Positions 2,502 through 61,845 of a stretch of 64,000 bases of DNA are shown piece by piece (position 1 is the first letter of the stretch; the number at the start of each line of letters is the position of its first letter). The position numbers were made by a program, and so were the translations under genes. The stretch comes from a virus. The notes below the pieces were generated by a model that had not been told where the DNA came from, made no database searches, and saw nothing but the letters and a program-made list of their open reading frames with translations. The stretch lies in the IMG/VR virus record IMGVR_UViG_3300029431_000104; one strand, written 5' to 3'.

Positions 2502-3179
2502 ATGAATACACAGGATATCCGAAAAGAACAGGAACAGGTGCTTGCTCACGCTGCCGAAAGGCCGTCTGAGCTGTTTGGGTTGCTGGATTACATATTTGAT
2601 CATGCAAATGGAGACGTTGACGAAGCAGAAACCAGGATTCTGGACGAAATAAAACGCTGGGTTCGAGATATGGGTAAGATGATTGCAGGGAAAAAAGTGC
2701 AACTTAAGAAGCTGAAAGAGCAGCTGCTGTCTGCACCGACACTGACACCTGTAGAAGCCTACTACGCCATGAATTCTGGGTGCTCTGGGGAAGGAGAACG
2801 AGTCCAGAGCAGTCATATCTCAGACCCGACTGCAAAAGCAGCAATCGGCGCACTGGATTACATTATCCGAACCTGGCGGGATGATTACAAGAAATCATTG
2901 AAAAAATATGGGACACTGGCAGGTGATATTTATCTTCTGGAAATGGCTGCAGATTATGTGGGCGGAGAACAGGGGACGGTTGTTCGGCAGATTTATGTGG
3001 ATGGAGTTTTCTGGAAAGATGCAGTGGGGTTAGAGGGAAAGTCGCTGTCGTGGCAAGTCATCCGAAAGATGGAACGACAGGCGCAGGAAGAAATGGCTGA
3101 ATTTATTTTGAAGTACTGGAAAACACAGCGGGAAGAAAATGAGGAGGACATGAAGGATGGCACGGAGAAAGTTGTTTGA
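2502..3179 (+). CDS. hypothetical phage protein
   Basis: The listed ORF begins with TTG at 2430. The ATG at 2502 is preferred because it has a GAAGGGA/GTGGAAG RBS. No recognised motif. Confidence 0.4.
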   Translation: MNTQDIRKEQEQVLAHAAERPSELFGLLDYIFDHANGDVDEAETRILDEIKRWVRDMGKMIAGKKVQLKKLKEQLLSAPTLTPVEAYYAMNSGCSGEGERVQSSHISDPTAKAAIGALDYIIRTWRDDYKKSLKKYGTLAGDIYLLEMAADYVGGEQGTVVRQIYVDGVFWKDAVGLEGKSLSWQVIRKMERQAQEEMAEFILKYWKTQREENEEDMKDGTEKVV

Positions 3180-3612
3180 TAGACCGGTAGATAAGGAAAT
3201 GGTAGAACGAGCAAAACAGGTCTGTAAGGAATACACAGTGGCGAAGCGGGAACTGCCGGTACTGGAACAGGATCTTGCGCGGTTGGCAACTAAGCGGACT
3301 GAGGAAAAAAACAAAGTAATGCGGCAGTTGTATCTGGAAAAAGAGCAGGAACTTCAGAAAATGGTTGACCAGGATAAAGAAATCATCACACTTTTCACAG
3401 CTGGAGAGGAGTTTTTAGAAGGAACACCCAGAGAAGTTATTATCCAGAAATTTCTCAACGGAAAAGGATGGAACGAAATTGAAACCCCAGAAAGTAGTGT
3501 GGTAAAAATGTCGAATGGCTGTGTAGACCACTATCTCAAAATCGGATATCAGATGATGGGGTATGGAATCCAGCGGTATCTTTCAATACGGGATAAGATG
3601 TTGGGAAAGTGA
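3157..3612 (+). CDS. hypothetical phage protein (possible small regulator)
   Basis: ATG with GAGGAGGA RBS 8 nt upstream; 151 aa; followed by a rho-independent terminator. Confidence 0.45.
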   Translation: MARRKLFDRPVDKEMVERAKQVCKEYTVAKRELPVLEQDLARLATKRTEEKNKVMRQLYLEKEQELQKMVDQDKEIITLFTAGEEFLEGTPREVIIQKFLNGKGWNEIETPESSVVKMSNGCVDHYLKIGYQMMGYGIQRYLSIRDKMLGK

Positions 3613-3639
3613 ACTTCAGGAGTTCACTTCCTTTTTTTG
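3607..3639 (+). terminator. rho-independent terminator
   Basis: AAGTGAACT-tcagg-AGTTCACTT 9-bp stem followed by a 7-T run. Confidence 0.6.
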
Positions 3640-3700
3640 AACTTTTACCAGTCACGATAAAACATCGAGAGCTATAACTTTTCAGAGCTTTTCATCATAA

Positions 3701-3760
3701 TTGGAGAGAATTGCTTTTAATTGGAGAAAAATGGCTTATATTGGAGAAAAAACGCATTGC
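3701..3760. repeat. 3 x 20-bp tandem direct repeats (TTGGAGArAAwkGCTTwTAA)
   Basis: ttggagagaattgcttttaa / ttggagaaaaatggcttata / ttggagaaaaaacgcattgc read directly from the sequence; the third copy overlaps the -35 of the downstream promoter. Confidence 0.7.
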
Positions 3761-3786
3761 ATCGTATGTAGACCCGTGCTATAATA
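3757..3786 (+). promoter_or_regulatory. sigma-70-like promoter (TTGCAT-18 nt-TGcTATAAT)
   Basis: -35 TTGCAT at 3757-3762, extended -10 TGCTATAAT at 3778-3786. Confidence 0.45.
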
Positions 3787-3819
3787 TAAACTGTCAAAAG
3801 CTAAAGAGAAGCAAACAAA

Positions 3820-3853
3820 CAGCCGATAGGTCAAAATCCTGTCGGCTGTTTTC
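3820..3853 (+). terminator. leader hairpin/terminator between promoter and the PemK-like gene
   Basis: CAGCCGATAGG-tcaaaat-CCTGTCGGCTG 11-bp stem (one G-U wobble) followed by TTTTC; lies in the 5' leader, about 50 nt upstream of the RBS. Confidence 0.55.
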
Positions 3854-3901
3854 ATGCCCTCTTTGGCTTTTTTTATTATGCGTCAAGGAGGTGGAACCCG
3901 T

Positions 3902-4483
3902 ATGGGGCGCAAGAAGAAAAATGCAAGACATAGCGTGCATGGTCGCAAGATTCATGTCAACAAGTACATCAATCAATGCGGAAAAACCAAGAAGTGCCGC
4001 AAGTCAGCAGTATCCTGGCGGCCGGCATCGAAAGAAACACCGTTTAATGATATGCCGACCTACCAGTGGCCGACTGTGAGAACCCCAAAACAGTATGAAG
4101 TCTGGTTCGCAGAGCTAGGCGATCACTCTGGCACTTCGGTGCAGAGCGGTACACGTCCAGTTCTGGTCATCAGCAATGACGTGGCGAATCGTAATTCCCC
4201 GGTCATTACAGTGATTCCGCTGAGTTCCAAGTTGAAGAAGCTGGAACTTCCGGTACACATCGTACTTACAGAAAAAGAGTGTGAGATGCTCAGGGATGAG
4301 CATTTGGAGGATTCCATCCTGCTGGTGGAGCAGATCACAACCATCGATAAGATGGTTCTGTTTAATCGGCTCTGCTATGTGGTCTCCGTTCAGAAGAAGT
4401 ACGAGATCGAAGCGGCTGTCACAAAGCAGTTTGCGATGCGGGCTTCAACACATGGTGCGAATTCTACGAGAAAGGAGGTCTGA
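3902..4483 (+). CDS. PemK/MazF-family endoribonuclease-like protein with N-terminal basic Cys/His extension
   Basis: Core YEVWFAELGDHSGTSVQSGTRPVLVISNDVANRNSPVITVIPLSSK matches the PemK/Kid/MazF signature (GEIW..LDPT.G.EQ.G.RPVLIV....VVPVTS). Strong RBS AAGGAGGTG sits before the ATG at 3902. An alternative start is the ATG at 4052 (core only). The N-terminal ~50 aa is K/R/H/C-rich (HSVHGRKIHVNKYINQCGKTKKC). Confidence 0.65.
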   Translation: MGRKKKNARHSVHGRKIHVNKYINQCGKTKKCRKSAVSWRPASKETPFNDMPTYQWPTVRTPKQYEVWFAELGDHSGTSVQSGTRPVLVISNDVANRNSPVITVIPLSSKLKKLELPVHIVLTEKECEMLRDEHLEDSILLVEQITTIDKMVLFNRLCYVVSVQKKYEIEAAVTKQFAMRASTHGANSTRKEV

Positions 4484-4488
4484 CCGCT

Positions 4489-6900
4489 ATGGTGGATATC
4501 AAAAACATCCCGGCGGAGCTGAAGACCTCCTGCCGGTTTTGTGTCTGGAAATTTGAAAAGCGAAACGGTCAGAAGACCAAGATGCCGTATAACCCGGCGA
4601 ACGGTGACAGAGCAAAGATCAATGACCTCCGAACCTTTGCGGATTTCAAGACCACGCTTGTTACCTACGCGATGGGCGGCTATGATGGCATCGGCATTGC
4701 GGTTGGCAGTGGTATCGGAGCTTTCGACATCGACCACTGCATCCGGGAGGATGGTACGCTGAACGATACTGCGGACACTGTACTTTCGATCTTCCCTACA
4801 GCGTATGTAGAGAAGTCACCGTCCGGCAAAGGACTACGTGGATTCTTCCATGTGCCTGAAGACTACGTCTATGACAAGACGGTTTACTACATCAACAACC
4901 GCAGCAAAGGGCTGGAAGTGTATATGCCCGGTGCGACTAACCGCTTCGTTACCGTGACGGGAGATGTTTACCGCACAGGTGAGATCCCAAACGATGAAAC
5001 GGCAATGACCACTCTGCTGGACTCGCTGATGAAGCGAAATAAGCAGGTGCAGCAGACCCATTTCCAGCACCATTCATATCTGGATGACGAGGCTGTTATT
5101 GCACATGCCAATGAAGCCAGCAACAGTGAGAAGTTCAAAAGGCTGTTTGCCGGTGAGTGGGAAGACCTCTACGGCAGTCAGTCGGATGCAGATATGGCGT
5201 TCCTGTCTATTCTGGCATTCTGGTGCGGCTGTGATGAGGAGCAGATGGACCGCATCTTCCGCACATCTGGTCTGATGCGCCCGAAGTGGGATCGCAAACA
5301 GGCTGGTTCAACCTACGGTGCCATCTCTATCCGCAACACAGTCAATACCTGCGTTTCCGTTTACATTCCTGGCAACGCGCAGGACATTGTGGATGAGGAG
5401 TTTGCAAATCTTGACTCTGATGATAAAGAGGCGGAGCGGCCACCGGACATCAGCAAGCTCACGCTGTCGCTGGAAGAAATGGCTCCGCACACGAATCCGC
5501 GCTACGGCAGGGATGAGATCGGTTTGGGCAACATGTTCGCCGATTTTTTCAAGCCTATCGCACGGTACAACAGTGAACGCGGCATCTGGTTTGTCTATGA
5601 TGGAGTTGTCTGGCAGCCGGATATGGAGAACCTTAAGGTGGCAGAGCTTGCGAAATATCTGGCAGATAAGCTGTATCTGTTTGCATTGAAGATTACAGAA
5701 GAGGATGTCAGAAAGCGGTTCATCGACCGCGTCCGGAAACTCCAGCAACGCAAGCACCGTGACACGATGCTGAAAGACGCGAAGTCCGTATTCCCACTGT
5801 CCATGAAGCAGTACGATCAGGATATCTATCTGTTCAACTGCAAAAATGGAACACTGGATCTGCGGACGATGGAATTCCGGGAACACCGCCCGGAGGATTT
5901 TCTCACAAAAGTGTCCCCTGTGATATATGCCCCGGATGCCGACTGCCCTCGCTGGCGGACGTTCATCACGGAGATCATGCAGGGGGATAAGGCCAGAGCA
6001 GACTATCTTCAGAAGGCTATCGGATACTCGTTGACTGGTGACACCCGCATGGAGTGCTTGTTTATTCTGTACGGTCCGACATCCAGAAACGGTAAGGGTA
6101 CCACAATGGAGAGTATTCTGCGTATTATGGGCGAGTACGGTAAAAATGCAGATCCGACCATGCTGCAGGCGAAGTTTAACAGCCAGAGCGGAGGACCGTC
6201 TGAGGAAATCGCCCGGCTTGCCGGCTCTCGTTTTGTAAACATCTCCGAGCCGGAGAAAAAGATCACTCTGGATGCAGCTCTTACCAAACGACTGACCGGT
6301 AACGATACGATCACAGCCCGGTATCTGCATGAGAACAGTTTTGAGTTCCGACCGAACTTCAAAATTTTCATCAACACGAACCATCGTCCGAATATCACAG
6401 ACCTTACGCTGTTTGAGTCTGGCCGAATCAAAATCATTCCGTTTGACCGGCATTTTGAAGAAAATGAACAGGATAAGGATCTAAAGTCCACTTTTGCTAA
6501 ACCGGAAAATATGTCCGGCATTCTGAACTGGATGCTCGAAGGCTATAAGCTGTTCCGCAGTCAGGGACTTGCCATGCCGGATTCTGTCGTTCAGGCAACA
6601 ACGGACTATCAGATATTCTCAGATAAGATGGGTCAGTTTTTTGATGAATGCATTGAAGAAAAGGAAGGGTGTGAGCTTCGGCGCGGTGCAGTTTACACAC
6701 GCTACAAAGAGTGGTGTGGAGAGAATGGCTACCGGGCAGAGGCAGCCAAGAATCTAAACCAGGAGATTGAAAAGCGGTACAAGACTGCAAGAAAGCGTCC
6801 GAATGACGGTGCCTCCAGCAGTACGACTCCGATGGTCCTGGATGTGGCGTTCACGGCAAGTGAAGAGTCAAAAGAGGACTTTGCACCATTGACATCATGA
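4489..6900 (+). CDS. DNA primase/helicase (N-terminal prim-pol domain, C-terminal D5/P4-type NTPase)
   Basis: 803 aa; N-terminal bifunctional primase-polymerase-like region; P-loop LFILYGPTSRNGKGT; D5_N/PriCT-like middle region; RBS AAAGGAGGT. Confidence 0.85.
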   Translation: MVDIKNIPAELKTSCRFCVWKFEKRNGQKTKMPYNPANGDRAKINDLRTFADFKTTLVTYAMGGYDGIGIAVGSGIGAFDIDHCIREDGTLNDTADTVLSIFPTAYVEKSPSGKGLRGFFHVPEDYVYDKTVYYINNRSKGLEVYMPGATNRFVTVTGDVYRTGEIPNDETAMTTLLDSLMKRNKQVQQTHFQHHSYLDDEAVIAHANEASNSEKFKRLFAGEWEDLYGSQSDADMAFLSILAFWCGCDEEQMDRIFRTSGLMRPKWDRKQAGSTYGAISIRNTVNTCVSVYIPGNAQDIVDEEFANLDSDDKEAERPPDISKLTLSLEEMAPHTNPRYGRDEIGLGNMFADFFKPIARYNSERGIWFVYDGVVWQPDMENLKVAELAKYLADKLYLFALKITEEDVRKRFIDRVRKLQQRKHRDTMLKDAKSVFPLSMKQYDQDIYLFNCKNGTLDLRTMEFREHRPEDFLTKVSPVIYAPDADCPRWRTFITEIMQGDKARADYLQKAIGYSLTGDTRMECLFILYGPTSRNGKGTTMESILRIMGEYGKNADPTMLQAKFNSQSGGPSEEIARLAGSRFVNISEPEKKITLDAALTKRLTGNDTITARYLHENSFEFRPNFKIFINTNHRPNITDLTLFESGRIKIIPFDRHFEENEQDKDLKSTFAKPENMSGILNWMLEGYKLFRSQGLAMPDSVVQATTDYQIFSDKMGQFFDECIEEKEGCELRRGAVYTRYKEWCGENGYRAEAAKNLNQEIEKRYKTARKRPNDGASSSTTPMVLDVAFTASEESKEDFAPLTS

Positions 6901-6997
6901 GCTTGAAATTCAAGGTACGGACGGATTTGTTGCGGCTGTTGCTGGAAGAACACAGTGAAATCTATTGTTTTTGATTTTCATAAGTTCCCATCAAAAT

Positions 6998-7292
6998 ACC
7001 AGCAACACACGACTTCGGAGTCACGTTACCAGCAACAGCAGCAACGCCCCAGCAACAGAAAAACGTAGGAAAATCAAGGGTTTTCGGTGCTGTTGCGAGT
7101 GTTGCGAGTGAAAACCCTATTTTATTTATATTATTTTCTTTTATATACTATTTACTTTTTACTAGCAACAATAGCAACAAAAGAAAAAATATAGATCTTA
7201 ACACCCCTGAAAAGTGCGTAAAATCAATATTTTTGGGGACTGGACACCTCGCTTTGTGAGGAAAGCGCCAGCAACACACCAGCAACAGATTC
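6998..7292. repeat. iteron cluster plus AT-rich tract (candidate phage origin of replication)
   Basis: At least 8 copies of (C/T)AGCAACA (7000, 7030, 7036, 7050, 7165, 7174, 7269, 7280); tandem GTTGCGAGT x2 (7093-7110); AT-rich 7111-7200; immediately downstream of the primase. Confidence 0.5.
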
Positions 7293-7406
7293 AGAGGACA
7301 CATTGGAACTACACAATGGAACATCGCAGGCCGCTTTTGTGGGAGCCTATTTGTGGGCAAGGGCAAAGGCGGCTTGCTTTGTGATACATGAAAGAGAGGA
7401 CAGAAC

Positions 7407-8837: not shown

Positions 8838-9237
8838 CACTCCCACCGGGGCCGGGGTCACTTCTCTACAGTGAAGTCACACGAAGACCGGTGCGCCCTT
8901 TTCTGTGAAAAACCGCAAAATTCATAGGCCGGGGGTCAGAGGAATAACGACGCAAAATGAAACAGGAAAATGTACAGGCATCGGAGCTTCGGTTCCGGTG
9001 CCATTCTTTTTCCCCGAAATGAACCAAAGTGTGTGAAACCTCTCGTAAACAGGGAGCTTTCGCACATTTTAGCTTGTTCCGGGAGGAGCAGGGGCGAGCG
9101 GGAATCGGCCGTCGCAACAACGATCCAACCTGGCGGGGCAGTGCCGATTTCAACTTCGCTGCTTTTCGTATGTATTTTGAAATTTTTCTAAGAAACCGCC
9201 GAAGAAACGGCGAAAAATGAGAGTGAGGTGAGGGCAG

Positions 9238-9558
9238 ATGGAAGATTACACGGCTGAGATGATTAGGGACATGGCTTTTTCCTTCTGCCCTCAGTGCGGT
9301 ACGGCAATCGTACCAAACCATAAAGGCAGACCACGGAAGTTCTGCTCACCGGAATGCCGGTCACGGTGGAACAACACCCATCCAAAGCCGGAGAACTGGA
9401 AGACCGTGCGGTCGAAGATCTGCCCGGTGTGCGGCAGGGAGTTTTCCTACCGGCACCAGTATGGTCTGGAACGGAAATATTGCAGCCGTGCCTGTGCAAA
9501 CAAAGGACGCTGGAAGGAGGGCGATGCAAATGGAAGAACCGCTGAACATAGAACGTAA
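9238..9558 (+). CDS. double zinc-ribbon protein
   Basis: 106 aa; two CxxCG-x16-18-CSxxCR units (CPQCG...CSPECR; CPVCG...CSRAC). Confidence 0.5.
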   Translation: MEDYTAEMIRDMAFSFCPQCGTAIVPNHKGRPRKFCSPECRSRWNNTHPKPENWKTVRSKICPVCGREFSYRHQYGLERKYCSRACANKGRWKEGDANGRTAEHRT

Positions 9559-10024
9559 TGTGGTAAAGAACGGTGTCCGGCTGGACTGTGTGTTTGAGGG
9601 CTATGAGTACCGCCCGGAGAGGGAAGAAGTCCGAAGCCAGCGGCTTGCCGGGTTTGAATGTGTGGAGATCGCAGAAAACACCGGGTTGTCTTTGGAACAG
9701 GTCACGGATTACTGTCGGGAACTGGGTCTGCCGGAAACGGGGAGCTGCCAGTTACAGCCGTCGGATGGGTCGAGGGAACGGCACTGTCCGGTTTGTGGAC
9801 GCATTCTCGTGCAGAGAGGGAACAGTGGTCGGAGACGGTTCTGTTCTCCTGAGTGCCGGGAGGAATATTACAGGCAGCATAAGTCTTTTAGGATCGCGGT
9901 CTGTAAAAACTGTGGAAGGGAGTTCCATGCCGTAGATGAAGGAAAACGGCAGCGGAAGTTCTGCAGTCTGAATTGTTACTGGGATTATCGATACGGGATG
10001 AAGGGAGTGGATGAGGATGAGTAA
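9524..10024 (+). CDS. HTH (sigma-70 region-4-like) plus double zinc-ribbon protein
   Basis: The ORF track lists 9461; the ATG at 9524 after GGAAGGAGGG is preferred. Residues FECVEIAENTGLSLEQVTDYCRELGL resemble an HTH. Two ribbons follow: CPVCG...CSPECR and CKNCG...CSLNC. It is a paralog of the preceding gene. Confidence 0.5.
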   Translation: MQMEEPLNIERNVVKNGVRLDCVFEGYEYRPEREEVRSQRLAGFECVEIAENTGLSLEQVTDYCRELGLPETGSCQLQPSDGSRERHCPVCGRILVQRGNSGRRRFCSPECREEYYRQHKSFRIAVCKNCGREFHAVDEGKRQRKFCSLNCYWDYRYGMKGVDEDE

Positions 10025-10235
10025 GATTATCGGTGTGTTTCCGATGTTCAACACCGGGGGTATCTGTGTACATGCGATTGACGATGCGGAAGATAAGGTC
10101 CTGGCATCCGTGAACGGGGAAAACCCGGAATGGTACGAGATGGCTGAACATCCGCAGGAAGATGGAGATGAGATGGAGTCGGGCTTTTTGTTCGGCTCCT
10201 TTTTCGTGCCGTTCTCCGGGGTCATGCGCATGTGA
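10011..10235 (+). CDS. small hypothetical protein
   Basis: 74-aa ORF overlapping the previous stop; acidic, with a hydrophobic C-terminus; weakly supported. Confidence 0.3.
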   Translation: MRMSKIIGVFPMFNTGGICVHAIDDAEDKVLASVNGENPEWYEMAEHPQEDGDEMESGFLFGSFFVPFSGVMRM

Positions 10236-61205: not shown

Positions 61206-61311
61206 GGGGTGTGTGGCGAAGTCGGCAAAAGGCAGCCAACCGGGTAAAAATCCAGGATGCTTGCAAGGCAGCAAGGTGGAAGGTGACCGGGTGGGCAGGA
61301 GGCTATACAGA

Positions 61312-61329
61312 CAAGTCTACTCAACAAAA
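61312..61329. repeat. 18-bp direct repeat CAAGTCTACTCAACAAAA (copy B) plus partial copies at 61352 and 61752
   Basis: Read directly; copies B and C are each followed by an AGTGA-N6-TCACT palindrome. Confidence 0.7.
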
Positions 61330-61330
61330 C

Positions 61331-61713
61331 AGTGATTATAATCACTCCTGACAAGTCTACTCAACAAGTGAATAAAATCACTTTTGCACCTATGAACGTA
61401 AAAAATAAGTGATTAAGCTCACTTGTGGCTATTGGAAATAAGTGATTTTGTTCACTTAGAAAAAGTGAGCTTTTTACGCCACCCGGAGTTTTGGGTGATG
61501 CTATCATTTGGTAAAAATAAGTGATTATAATCACTAAAAGTCATTACAAACTGAAATAAGTGAGCTTAATCACTTATAAGGAAAAAAGTGAATATTTTAC
61601 GCTCTGATGTACTTTGAGGTCGTCGATTAGTCAATAATCGGCGGCTTCTTTTTTATGCCTGGAAAAGCGGGGATGTAGCTACATACGGCAATAAGTGAGC
61701 TTTATACGCCACC
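61331..61713. promoter_or_regulatory. array of six AAGTGA-N6-TCACTT inverted repeats plus three AAGTGAGCTTT(T/A)TACGCC half-site motifs
   Basis: Palindromes at 61331-61346, 61368-61382, 61407-61424, 61440-61457, 61519-61535, 61558-61575. Half-site motifs at 61462-61484, 61583-61605, 61690-61713. AT-rich non-coding DNA. Confidence 0.6.
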
Positions 61714-61845
61714 GTCGAGCAACTTCTCCGAACAAATTTGAGTACAGAAATGTCTACTCAACAAACTGTATTGACGTGCGTGCGGTGCTATCAGTGTTTG
61801 AAAGTCTGTCCGTTCAAAGAAGCACAAGCATAGGATGGAGAGAAA

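What the first reader, a model, noticed from the sequence alone, without database searches (positions are those of the whole stretch)
3701..4483. Orphan PemK/MazF-like endoribonuclease gene with N-terminal basic Cys/His extension, preceded by 3x20-bp repeats, a promoter and a hairpin/terminator leader, with no protein antitoxin
The C-terminal ~120 aa matches the PemK/Kid/MazF toxin signature strongly. There is no upstream antitoxin ORF; the only candidate, 3711-4079, is an out-of-frame overlap. Instead the upstream region has three tandem 20-bp repeats (3701-3760), a TTGCAT-18-TGcTATAAT promoter and an 11-bp-stem hairpin + TTTTC (3820-3853) between the TSS and the RBS. That layout of repeats, a terminator, then an endoribonuclease-fold toxin resembles type III (ToxIN-like) RNA-antitoxin systems. 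Alternatively the short promoter-to-terminator transcript (~60 nt) could be an antisense or attenuator RNA. The ORF with a good RBS also begins 50 codons early, with a K/R/H/C-rich segment (HSVHGRKIHVNKYINQCGKTKKC) that could be a zinc-binding or nucleic-acid-binding addition, or a fused neutralising domain.
Basis: partly seen in the sequence, partly recalled or inferred. Interest (0 to 1): 0.65.

Follow-up and report, generated by a model that had tools for sequence, protein, structure and literature searches.

The report
Solitary phage MazF ribonuclease behind terminator
A prophage of a gut Blautia carries a MazF-type RNA-cutting "toxin" gene with no antitoxin, a conserved basic N-terminal tail and a conserved promoter-plus-hairpin leader; it looks like a lytic-cycle phage nuclease kept silent by transcription control, not a new RNA-antitoxin system.

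Summary
Window 3902-4483 encodes a 193-aa PemK/MazF (EndoA-type) protein with the catalytic Arg and Ser/Thr intact and a 62-aa N-terminal extension. There is no conserved antitoxin ORF. Upstream lie 3x20-bp repeats, an extended -10 promoter and a hairpin with a U-run.

The hairpin is larger than reported: 76 nt, 3796-3871, z = -5.5. The Cys residues of the extension are not conserved, so zinc binding is unsupported.

The type III (ToxIN-like) reading fails. The repeats lie upstream of the -35, outside the leader transcript. They differ in sequence, number and period between phage lineages, and they travel with the adjacent upstream regulator gene. The leader RNA has no tandem repeats.

The gene belongs to a phage-restricted MazF subfamily with the motif GRK(K/N)...KYI. 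It sits directly upstream of a D5/prim-pol primase in temperate Heliusvirales-like prophages of gut Clostridia, nearly always behind a hairpin with a U-run.

Best reading (about 0.5): a lytic-cycle endoribonuclease that needs no antitoxin because a regulated promoter and promoter-proximal terminator keep it off in the lysogen. A leader-RNA or N-terminal-tail interaction is not excluded.

Verdict: a new variant of a known kind, of moderate interest.

The parts
2502..3179 (+). Upstream regulator candidate 1 (225 aa from the ATG at 2502; the ORF is open from 2430). Shares the GERVQ(S/T)SxIS motif with its positional orthologues.
   Evidence: Homologues are 225 aa and carry no Pfam domain. The motif matches L213:164-712. 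That orthologue and L215:49-624 hit RinA TIGR01636 at E 0.032 and sigma-70 ECF TIGR02937 at E 2.6e-5, all below curated cutoffs.
3157..3612 (+). Upstream regulator candidate 2 (151 aa). It is lineage-specific, and its C-terminus class co-segregates with the repeat class.
   Evidence: Only close homologues, 75% identity or more, were found. Positional orthologues L213:712-1191 and L215:628-1176 weakly hit sigma-70 region 4, SigF and RinA, at E 9e-5 to 1e-2. Co-segregation is shown. The AF2 model gives a confident helical hairpin at 13-87 and an unresolved C-terminus.
3607..3638 (+). Hairpin AAGTGAACTT-CAG-GAGTTCACTT followed by a T-run. It overlaps the stop codon of the 151-aa gene and is probably that gene's terminator.
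   Evidence: Terminator scan, 10 pairs; inverted repeat I2.
3697..3759 (.). Three direct 20-bp repeats with core ATTGGAGARAA at 3700, 3720 and 3740, centred at about -87, -67 and -47 from the predicted TSS. Probably a protein-binding DNA site, not RNA.
   Evidence: L012 has four copies and L095 has sequence variants. Other lineages carry unrelated repeats at the same place.
3757..3792 (+). Promoter: -35-like TTGCAT (3757-3762), 17-nt spacer, extended -10 TGCTATAAT (3777-3785), and a second -10-like hexamer TAAACT (3787-3792). The TSS is predicted near 3792-3799.
   Evidence: Read from the sequence. The same layout, TGnTATAAT/TATACT then 1 nt then TATACT/TAAACT/TATAAT, occurs in 27 distinct promoter cores. 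The type-D core is a single copy per phage contig and always lies upstream of the MazF gene, in 32 of 32 contigs.
3796..3879 (+). Leader hairpin 3796-3871: outer stem AAAAGCUAAAGAG/CUCUUUGGCUUUU and inner stem 3817-3851. A U-run follows at 3868-3879 (UUUUUUUAUUAU). Read as a promoter-proximal terminator or attenuator, or as the body of an ~80-nt RNA.
   Evidence: MFE -46.5 kcal/mol, z -5.5. Equivalent hairpins in 6 other lineages fold at z -5.0 to -7.9 with different sequences. Compensatory pairs are seen. The outer stem is kept around a 125-nt insert in L132 and L133. There is no Rfam family.
3885..3894 (+). Ribosome-binding site AAGGAGGTGG.
   Evidence: Read from the sequence. GGAGGTGA precedes the start codon in all related loci.
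3902..4087 (+). N-terminal extension (aa 1-62). It comprises the basic conserved block MGRKKxNARxxxHGRKIHVNKYINQxGKTK and a variable linker.
   Evidence: Synonymous changes outnumber non-synonymous ones (4152 vs 2690), and third-position changes dominate. The extension queried alone finds only this family among 1.84e9 representatives. AF2 gives pLDDT below 50 for residues 16-65.
4088..4483 (+). PemK/MazF (EndoA-type) endoribonuclease domain and C-terminal tail. R85 is invariant and S108 is Ser or Thr in every homologue.
4489..6900 (+). D5/prim-pol primase-helicase. It starts 5 nt after the MazF stop codon; the two genes overlap in relatives. It is the conserved downstream partner.
   Evidence: Pfam D5_N, NrS1-1 HBD, Pox_D5 and DUF5906; PHROG 1829. 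Adjacency is conserved in at least 14 lineages.

Best explanation
Window 3902-4483 encodes a phage-type solitary MazF/EndoA-family endoribonuclease. It is the first gene of an operon it shares with the D5/prim-pol primase-helicase, in a temperate Heliusvirales-like prophage; a near-identical copy sits in Blautia faecis.

It is not half of a toxin-antitoxin pair. It can do without an antitoxin because its expression is gated at the level of transcription:
- a strong extended -10 promoter;
- lineage-specific protein-binding repeats just upstream (3x20 bp here), most likely bound by the sigma-region-4/RinA-like regulator(s) encoded immediately upstream;
- a 76-nt hairpin plus U-run immediately downstream, which stops most transcripts after about 80 nt.

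In the lysogen only the short leader RNA, or nothing, is made. During lytic growth, activation or antitermination lets RNA polymerase read into the MazF-like gene and the primase. The RNase, carrying a conserved arginine/lysine-rich N-terminal tail, then cuts RNA. Its targets would be host mRNA or rRNA (shut-off) and/or phage transcripts.

Shown: domain identity, catalytic residues, conservation and selection on the tail, synteny, conservation of the promoter and hairpin structure, and the position and lineage-specificity of the repeats.

Inferred: regulator binding, termination and read-through, RNase activity and its targets, and silence in the lysogen.
For: - Domain and catalytic residues.
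- No conserved antitoxin ORF on either side. The downstream gene is the primase, starting 5 nt after the stop.
- The gene is conserved, not a sporadic moron. The order VRR-NUC, SNF2, 0 or 2 regulator genes, MazF-like, primase, SAM synthetase holds in at least 14 lineages whose MazF identity falls to 31-36%. MazF-like genes are also annotated in 64 phage records, many of them Ca. Heliusvirales.
- The phages are integrated in isolate genomes: Blautia faecis (165-kb contig), Clostridium fessum (1.09-Mb scaffold) and Faecalibacterium. The gene must therefore be tolerated in lysogens.
- A GC hairpin with a U-run lies 15-60 nt upstream of the start codon in 12 of 14 additional diverged lineages, including those where the gene follows SNF2 with no promoter.
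- Leader hairpins are far more stable than shuffles (z -5 to -7.9), and their sequence varies with compensatory changes.
- Repeat class co-segregates with the upstream regulator class across recombinants that share the same leader and MazF.
- Positional orthologues of the two upstream ORFs give sub-threshold sigma-70 region 4 and RinA hits.
- Further intrinsic terminators lie inside the same co-directional gene array, at 8977-9002 and 10175-10199, which suggests antitermination is used.
Against: - No expression data exist, so termination efficiency and read-through are inferred from sequence only.
- The regulator assignment is weak. The window's own two ORFs have no family hit. The AF2 model of the 151-aa protein did not resolve a DNA-binding domain.
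- Co-segregation of repeats and regulator could reflect physical adjacency alone.
- The hairpin is conserved even in lineages with short U-runs (L152, L157: CUUUCAU). The recurrent (A)CAU after it suggests it may be more than a terminator.
- UACAU, the site cut by the closest characterised MazFs, is not avoided in the phage's own transcripts (31 observed, 38.6 expected). Nothing therefore points to a host-only target.
- The tight, often overlapping coupling to the primase is unexplained.
Confidence: 0.5

Rival explanations
1. Single-hairpin RNA antitoxin (type III-like). The abundant ~80-nt leader RNA made from the strong promoter binds and neutralises the MazF-like protein, possibly through the basic N-terminal tail. 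Leaky read-through of the terminator sets the toxin-to-RNA ratio, as in ToxIN.
For: The layout of promoter, structured RNA, terminator and RNase gene resembles ToxIN. The basic tail and an upstream hairpin co-occur in most lineages, whereas the tail-less Heliusvirales MazF-likes (L170, L171) have no leader. A UUU(A)CAU motif follows the hairpin in many lineages; from my own knowledge, UACAU is the cleavage site of the EndoA clade.
Against: The RNA has no tandem repeats, and the DNA repeats lie outside the transcript. The hairpin sequence differs greatly between lineages while the tail is nearly constant, so sequence-specific recognition is unlikely. At least one tail-bearing lineage has no hairpin (L159) and one has only a weak one (L155). 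The gene sits in a conserved lytic or replication module rather than behaving as a mobile addiction or defence cassette, and PADLOC finds nothing.
Confidence: 0.1
2. Conventional protein neutralisation by an unrecognised partner. Candidates are the translationally coupled primase-helicase (a toxin-first order, as in higBA or hicAB), the upstream 151-aa protein, or a host MazE.
For: Toxin and primase are tightly coupled or overlapping, and the adjacency is conserved across at least 14 lineages. Canonical MazF homologues at 35-47% identity are common in the same host clades, so cognate-like MazE proteins exist in the hosts.
Against: No MazE, PemI, AbrB or RHH domain occurs in any neighbour. The primase is mosaic relative to MazF: primase 99-100% identical where MazF is only 61% identical (L175 and L118 are from one contig), which argues against co-adapted binding partners. 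The 151-aa gene is absent in the SNF2-adjacent lineages.
Confidence: 0.12
3. An RNA-processing or regulatory factor rather than a toxin. The arginine-rich tail targets the nuclease to its own leader or other phage transcripts. It would act in autoregulation (as T4 RegB and E. coli MazF act on their own mRNAs), in transcript maturation, or in N-like modulation of termination.
For: The N-terminal arginine/lysine-rich motif is conserved and is encoded directly downstream of a conserved hairpin, as with lambda nutL-N. UACAU lies in the 5' UTR of types B and D and of L145 and L153. A possible anti-SD pairing exists between CCUCUUUG (3857-3864) and the SD CAAGGAGG (3884-3891), judged by eye. Phage transcripts do not avoid UACAU.
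Against: All of this is inference from motifs. (A)CAU is short, and in the distant lineages it could occur by chance. The window's own leader has UUUUCAU, not UACAU. Nothing shows RNA binding by the tail.
Confidence: 0.15
4. The N-terminal extension is a fused, cis-acting neutralising domain (an intramolecular antitoxin), released by proteolysis or by a trigger.
For: The extension is conserved and specific to this family. The gene has no separate antitoxin.
Against: The extension is strongly basic, whereas MazE-type inhibitors mimic RNA with acidic or hydrophobic segments (own knowledge of MazE-MazF structures). AF2 shows it as disordered, with no docking (a low-confidence model). The linker is highly variable.
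Confidence: 0.05

Closest known systems
EndoA/MazF of Firmicutes (B. subtilis YdcE/EndoA, S. aureus MazF, B. anthracis MoxT), type II mazEF
   Same: Same Pfam family. Sequence match at E about 1e-15 over residues 63-164. The catalytic Arg (R85, equivalent to EndoA R25) and Ser/Thr (S108, equivalent to T48) and the EQIxTIDK motif are conserved.
   Different: There is no adjacent MazE. There is a 62-aa N-terminal extension with a conserved basic motif. The gene lies in a phage replication/lytic module, coupled to a primase and behind a terminator-like leader.
PHROG 1936 'MazF-like growth inhibitor' of Ca. Heliusvirales gut phages (e.g. Coprococcus phage NatCom_10489, PV036424)
   Same: Related phage backbone: SNF2 is 56% identical, and VRR-NUC and HNH are shared. 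The MazF-like gene sits after SNF2 and a sigma-like ORF, and no antitoxin is annotated.
   Different: Those proteins are ~120 aa without the GRK(K/N)...KYI tail. They have no intergenic promoter or hairpin and are not adjacent to the primase.
ToxIN / CptIN / TenpIN type III toxin-antitoxin systems
   Same: A promoter, then structured non-coding RNA, then a terminator, then an endoribonuclease gene. From my own knowledge, ToxN shares the Kid/MazF-like fold.
   Different: The RNA has no tandem repeats. The DNA repeats lie upstream of the promoter. The toxin family is different. The gene is a conserved phage core-like gene rather than an abortive-infection cassette.
Phage T4 RegB (own knowledge)
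   Same: A phage-encoded, toxin-fold, sequence-specific endoribonuclease with no antitoxin. It is made during infection, acts on mRNAs and limits its own mRNA.
   Different: RegB has a RelE/YoeB-like fold and comes from a virulent phage. Here the fold is MazF, the phage is temperate, and tight silencing in the lysogen is therefore required.
Lambda-type terminator-gated operons (PR'-tR' with Q; tR1/tL1 with N) (own knowledge)
   Same: A regulator gene lies immediately upstream. A strong promoter has protein-binding DNA next to it. A terminator falls within the first ~100 nt. A long co-directional operon with further terminators lies downstream.
   Different: No Q or N homologue was found. The second -10-like hexamer lies at about -6 to -1, not in the transcribed region as in lambda PR'. 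The mechanism is untested.

Membership tests
PemK/MazF endoribonuclease family (PF02452) | Significant match to the family profile above the curated cutoff | tested here: met
   69.8 bits against a cutoff of 23.1, E 2.7e-19, profile positions 1-108 of 109. PHROG 1936 matches at E 2.6e-16.
PemK/MazF endoribonuclease family (PF02452) | Catalytic Arg and Thr/Ser (EndoA R25/T48; E. coli MazF R29/T52) | tested here: met
   R85 is invariant. Position 108 is Ser or Thr in all 76 family members and in 13 distant phage homologues.
PemK/MazF endoribonuclease family (PF02452) | Sequence-specific, ribosome-independent RNA cleavage; growth inhibition | not testable with these tools
   The indirect test was uninformative: UACAU occurs 31 times on the sense strand against 38.6 expected, so it is not avoided.
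Type II mazEF toxin-antitoxin module | Adjacent co-transcribed protein antitoxin gene (MazE/PemI; AbrB or RHH fold) | tested here: not met
   There is no ORF between the promoter and the start codon. ORF 3711-4079 is broken in L012, L095 and L096. The neighbours have no antitoxin domain. The downstream gene is the primase.
Type III toxin-antitoxin systems (ToxIN, CptIN, TenpIN) | Toxin of the ToxN/AbiQ, CptN or TenpN families | tested here: not met
   The only Pfam hit is PF02452. PADLOC gives no hit.
Type III toxin-antitoxin systems (ToxIN, CptIN, TenpIN) | Tandem direct repeats transcribed between the promoter and the toxin gene | tested here: not met
   The repeats at 3697-3759 end at the -35. 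The leader 3792-3901 has no direct repeats. Other lineages carry unrelated repeats at that place.
Type III toxin-antitoxin systems (ToxIN, CptIN, TenpIN) | Terminator between the RNA gene and the toxin gene | tested here: met
   Hairpin 3796-3871 followed by a U7 run. The feature is conserved in related loci.
Type III toxin-antitoxin systems (ToxIN, CptIN, TenpIN) | Toxin processes and binds the antitoxin RNA | not testable with these tools
   Needs biochemistry.
Terminator-gated (antitermination-controlled) phage operon | Stable hairpin plus U-run within ~100 nt of the TSS, conserved in structure across relatives | tested here: met
   z -5.0 to -7.9 in 7 lineages. Compensatory changes are present. 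The feature is present in 12 of 14 additional diverged lineages.
Terminator-gated (antitermination-controlled) phage operon | Dedicated regulator acting at the promoter or leader | tested here: inconclusive
   Positional orthologues of the upstream ORFs give only sub-threshold sigma-70 region 4 and RinA hits. Repeats co-segregate with the regulator class. The AF2 model is uninformative.
RinA/ArpU (Ltr) late transcriptional regulators (for ORFs 2502-3179 and 3157-3612) | Match to TIGR01636/TIGR01637 or sigma-70 region 4 above cutoff | tested here: not met
   The window's own proteins have no hit. Orthologues in L213 and L215 score 14-24 bits against cutoffs of 32-43.

The most novel reading that the evidence does not exclude
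The conserved arginine/lysine-rich N-terminal tail (GRK(K/N)...KYI) is an RNA-hairpin-binding arm. It docks the MazF nuclease onto the structured leader RNA encoded just upstream. The leader would then be a single-hairpin, repeat-less RNA antitoxin or autoregulator. That would be a MazF-based analogue of type III systems, or an N/nut-like device, built into the replication operon of a very widespread family of human-gut prophages.
Probability: 0.12. Interest if true: 0.8.

Novelty: new variant of a known kind. Interest (0 to 1): 0.5.

Why it matters
MazF toxins are textbook type II toxins that are assumed to need MazE. This case differs in four ways:
- It is a phage-restricted MazF subfamily with a conserved basic N-terminal tail.
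- It has no antitoxin.
- It holds a fixed position directly upstream of the phage primase.
- It is preceded by a conserved terminator-like leader.

The family occurs in highly prevalent temperate phages of human-gut Lachnospiraceae and Oscillospiraceae (Heliusvirales-like). Individual 90%-identity clusters hold hundreds to more than 1000 metagenomic members.

If the gating model is right, it shows how temperate phages carry a lethal RNase safely, and it gives a candidate host shut-off or RNA-processing enzyme for an uncultured phage group. If the leader RNA or the tail takes part in neutralisation, it would be a new toxin-control mode.

It also gives a cautionary example: repeats next to a toxin gene are not evidence for a type III system unless they are transcribed.

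Tried and rejected
- **Rfam.** An E-value scan of 3000-5000 found nothing near any gathering score.
- **AF2 of the MazF-like protein.** A 76-sequence alignment gave mean pLDDT 49.8, with the tail disordered. It cannot be used for docking or fold search.
- **AF2 of the 151-aa upstream protein.** Only a coiled-coil hairpin was confident, so no fold search was run.
- **Pfam, PHROG and NCBIfam on the two upstream ORFs of the window.** No hits. Their homologues are all close and unannotated.
- **Repeats as replication iterons.** Rejected. A much better ori candidate lies at 6900-7400, and the repeats change with the upstream regulator.
- **Zinc-finger reading of the tail.** Rejected, because the Cys residues are not conserved.
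- **The tail as a mobile domain.** Rejected. It finds only 19 hits, nearly all members or fragments of the same family, among 1.84e9 representatives.
- **UACAU avoidance as a proxy for specificity.** No signal.
- **The conserved promoter as a multi-copy, phage-specific promoter.** It occurs once per contig, and all 32 contigs are among those that carry the MazF gene. Looser matches in the window were not convincing.
- **Literature searches.** No description was found of tail-bearing or primase-linked phage MazF. The Heliusvirales paper does not mention MazF.
- **MAFFT-based consensus folding of type-D hairpins.** Indels were misaligned, so only 15 pairs were scored. I relied on per-lineage folds instead.
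Full report
**1. What is at the coordinates**

The window around 3600-4500 reads, on the + strand, as follows.

| Coordinates | Feature |
|---|---|
| ends 3612 | End of a 151-aa ORF |
| 3607-3629 | Hairpin with a T-run, overlapping that ORF's stop codon |
| 3697-3759 | Three 20-bp direct repeats |
| 3757-3762 | -35-like TTGCAT |
| 3763-3779 | 17-nt spacer |
| 3777-3785 | Extended -10, TGCTATAAT |
| 3787-3792 | Second -10-like hexamer, TAAACT |
| 3796-3871 | Long hairpin |
| 3868-3879 | U-run |
| 3885-3894 | RBS, AAGGAGGTGG |
| 3902-4483 | 193-aa ORF |
| 4489-6900 | 803-aa primase gene, starting 5 nt after the stop |

Further checks:

- Tandem Repeats Finder reports period 20, 2.7 copies, 83% matches.
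- The exact 11-mers ATTGGAGARAA sit at 3700, 3720 and 3740. They are the only exact copies in the 64 kb.
That hairpin folds at -46.5 kcal/mol, z = -5.5, and 0 of 200 shuffles do as well.
- The simple promoter scanner missed the promoter because its -35 matches only 3 of 6 bases. The extended -10 is nonetheless perfect.

**2. The protein**

Pfam PemK_toxin (PF02452) matches residues 63-176 at E 2.7e-19, 69.8 bits against a cutoff of 23.1. PHROG 1936, 'MazF-like growth inhibitor', matches at 2.6e-16.

The nearest solved structures are the Firmicutes EndoA-type MazFs, at E about 1e-15: 7bxy, B. anthracis MoxT 4hke, S. aureus MazF 4mzm and B. subtilis EndoA 4mdx. In that alignment R85 and S108 fall on the catalytic Arg and Thr of EndoA (R25/T48; own knowledge of those structures).

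R85 is invariant. Position 108 is Ser or Thr in 76 family members and in 13 distant phage homologues. The protein therefore looks catalytically competent.

**3. The N-terminal extension is real, but it is not a zinc site**

More than 200 homologues were found, and most are 185-195 aa. They start with MGRKKxNARxxxHGRKIHVNKYINQxGKTK down to 46% overall identity.

Across 30 distinct 87-nt N-terminal coding segments, synonymous codon differences outnumber non-synonymous ones (4152 vs 2690). Third-position changes dominate, at 5955 against about 2000 for each of the other positions. The segment is therefore translated and under purifying selection.

The Cys residues are replaced freely (QC becomes QR, KKC becomes KKK/KPH).

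More distant phage MazF-likes, at 31-43% identity, carry a recognisably related motif, (M/L)GRKNxRxxxxYxxRxxxxPxKYI.

Queried alone, the 58-aa extension finds only 19 proteins among 1.84 billion representatives. Nearly all are members or fragments of this family. An AF2 monomer model was poor (pLDDT 49.8) and left residues 16-65 disordered.

**4. No antitoxin**

The only ORF upstream, 3711-4079, runs through the promoter and hairpin. It is broken by a stop or frameshift in the close relatives L012, L095 and L096.

Neither the two upstream ORFs nor any neighbour shows a MazE, PemI, AbrB or RHH domain. The downstream gene is a D5_N / NrS-1-HBD / Pox_D5 primase-helicase. PADLOC finds no defence-system model for the MazF-like protein or its neighbours, apart from generic SNF2 hits.

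**5. Genomic setting**

A 98%-identical copy lies in a 165-kb contig of Blautia faecis DFI.3.66. Other full-length relatives lie in Clostridium fessum (a 1.09-Mb scaffold), Faecalibacterium, Lawsonibacter, Wujia, Acetatifactor and Gemmiger. These are integrated, temperate elements.

The backbone is:

1. PolA
2. DUF932
3. VRR-NUC
4. SNF2
5. two small ORFs
6. MazF-like
7. primase
8. SAM synthetase
9. HNH
10. ParB-methylase
11. terminase

It relates the element to Ca. Heliusvirales gut phages: SNF2 is 56% identical to that of Coprococcus phage NatCom_10489. It also resembles the Streptococcus prophage Phi1207.3 type (PMC4260502).

The published Heliusvirales description does not mention MazF. No paper was found on tail-bearing or primase-linked phage MazFs.

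The MazF-like gene lies directly upstream of the primase in every tail-bearing lineage where the primase was mapped. That covers primase identities from 100% down to 49%. In one clade the order is SNF2, MazF, primase, with no regulator genes between.

Heliusvirales NatCom phages carry a short, 120-aa, tail-less MazF-like gene after SNF2 and a ~160-aa ORF. It has no leader and is not next to the primase.

The region is mosaic. The same contig can carry a primase 99-100% identical to the window's and a MazF only 61% identical.

**6. The leader**

In every lineage that has an intergenic region, the layout is the same:

- an extended -10 (TGnTATAAT or TATACT);
- a second -10-like hexamer 1 nt later;
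- a purine-rich start, CU(A)GGAAAA...;
- a 25-35-bp hairpin ending in a U-run.

Many lineages add UUUUUACAU and a second GC hairpin with its own U-run.

Six further lineages fold at z -5.0 to -7.9. Stem sequences differ between lineages, for example:

| Lineage | Stem sequence |
|---|---|
| window | AAAAGCUAAAGAG |
| L001 | GAAAAGCUGGAUAGAGAAG |
| L013 | AAAGGCGUGGAAAG |
| L017 | AAGAGCGGAUAAGAG |

Each pairs with its own 3' arm. Within one type, 5 of 15 scored pairs show double compensatory changes, for example column pair 4/55 with AU 11 and GC 10. L132 and L133 keep the outer stem around a 125-nt insertion.

In the clade without a promoter, a GC hairpin with a U-run still precedes the RBS in most lineages. 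Counting across 14 additional diverged lineages, 12 have it; L159 has none and L155 only a weak one.

The type-D promoter-leader core occurs once per phage contig, and all 32 contigs that hold it are among those that carry the MazF gene. No Rfam family matches.

**7. The repeats are DNA sites, not RNA**

They end at the -35, so they lie outside the transcript of this promoter. A terminator-like hairpin at 3607-3629 lies between them and the upstream gene. I found no good promoter by eye between 3630 and 3700.

Close relatives keep them with 3 or 4 copies (L012 has four). Other lineages have unrelated repeats at the same place:

- GGAAAA x3 at 20-bp spacing;
- TGAGCCAnTTTGAnnCAAA x2;
- GAAC x4 at 10-bp spacing;
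- TGAAC x2;
- TTGACA-type repeats.

Each repeat class goes with one class of C-terminus of the adjacent ~150-aa ORF. This holds even in recombinants that share an identical leader and MazF: L108 and L112 against L110, L111 and L113, and L001 against L129. The recombination joint is near the -35.

The two upstream ORFs of the window have no family hit. Their positional orthologues in L213 and L215 give sub-threshold matches:

- sigma-70 region 4 and SigF, E 9e-5;
- ECF sigma, E 2.6e-5;
- RinA, E 0.01-0.03.

They also share a GERVQ(S/T)SxIS motif.

Taken together, the repeats are best read as binding sites of the neighbouring regulator module. That is an inference, because physical linkage alone would also give the co-segregation.

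They are unlikely to be the origin of replication. A far better ori candidate lies at 6900-7400.

**8. How it most likely works**

Steps shown:

- a catalytically intact MazF-family gene without an antitoxin;
- temperate carriage;
- a conserved position at the head of the primase operon;
- a conserved promoter-proximal hairpin with a U-run;
- lineage-specific DNA repeats tied to the regulator module;
- further intrinsic terminators downstream in the same gene array (8977-9002 and 10175-10199).

Steps inferred:

- In the lysogen the operon is off, either because the promoter needs or obeys the regulators, or because most transcripts stop at the leader terminator.
- In the lytic cycle, activation or antitermination lets transcription through.
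- The RNase then cuts host and/or phage RNA.
- The cell is doomed by then, so no antitoxin is needed.

T4 RegB is a functional precedent and lambda tR1/tR' are regulatory precedents (own knowledge). I put this model at about 0.5.

**9. What remains unexplained**

- The role of the basic tail.
- The strict coupling to the primase.
- The recurrent U-run followed by (A)CAU after the hairpin. The window has GGCUGUUUUCAUGCC, and types B and D and loci L145 and L153 have UUU(U)ACAU. From my own knowledge, UACAU is the cleavage site of the closest characterised MazFs.
- The second -10-like hexamer.

These features keep alive a reading in which the nuclease interacts with its own leader, for autoregulation, RNA neutralisation or N-like action. 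UACAU is not avoided in the phage's sense strand (31 observed, 38.6 expected). That test therefore says nothing about specificity.

**10. Verdict**

- The type III interpretation is not supported.
- The solitary nature of the gene and the attenuator idea are supported.
- The object is a new variant of a known kind: a phage-specific, tail-bearing, antitoxin-less MazF at the head of a terminator-gated primase operon.
- It is widespread in human-gut prophages, and of moderate interest.

Noticed in passing
window 6900-7400: The gap between the primase stop codon and SAM synthetase holds at least 10 copies of CAGCAACA / TGTTGC(G/T)G in both orientations. They flank a very AT-rich stretch at about 7110-7165. 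This is a probable phage replication origin with iterons.
   Followed up: partly
window 61300-61720: An array of at least 8 copies of an 18-bp palindrome, AAGTGA-N6-TCACTT, with related half-sites AAGTGAGCTTT(T/A)TACGC. It looks operator-like or REP-like and lies outside the phage structural genes.
   Followed up: no
window 1-55000 (sense strand): GGACC/GGTCC, CCTGG/CCAGG and GGATC are 2-2.7-fold under-represented against a Markov expectation, which suggests restriction-site avoidance.
   Followed up: no
window 3787-3792 and all related promoters: A second -10-like hexamer (TAAACT, TATACT, TATAAT or TATCAT) lies 1 nt after the extended -10 in all 27 distinct promoter cores examined. Its role is unknown; it could mark an alternative TSS, pausing, or a phage sigma-like factor.
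   Followed up: partly
window 3848-3858; L145, L152, L153, L157, types B and D: The GC hairpin is followed by U3-6 and then (A)CAU just 5' of the RBS in many lineages, including ones with no promoter. UACAU is the known EndoA-clade cleavage site (own knowledge), so this may be an autoregulatory cut site.
   Followed up: partly
window 3857-3864 vs 3884-3891: CCUCUUUG, in the 3' arm of the big hairpin, is complementary to the SD region CAAGGAGG with one G-U pair. An alternative anti-SD helix could form if the 5' arm were removed. This was judged by eye.
   Followed up: no
L175/L118 (IMGVR_UViG_3300029376_000354) and others: Strong mosaicism. The primase is 99-100% identical to the window's, while the MazF-like gene and leader belong to another type at 61% identity. 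Recombination joints fall near the -35 and near the MazF/primase junction.
   Followed up: partly
window 8977-9002 and 10175-10199: Two strong intrinsic-terminator-like hairpins lie on the + strand inside the long co-directional gene array, after HNH and after ORF 9461-10024.
   Followed up: no
window 3607-3629; L001, L008, L016, L020 upstream regions: The motif AAGTGAAC recurs just upstream of the promoter region in several lineages. In the window it forms the arms of the hairpin at the end of the 151-aa gene, so that hairpin could be a protein-binding palindrome as well as a terminator.
   Followed up: no
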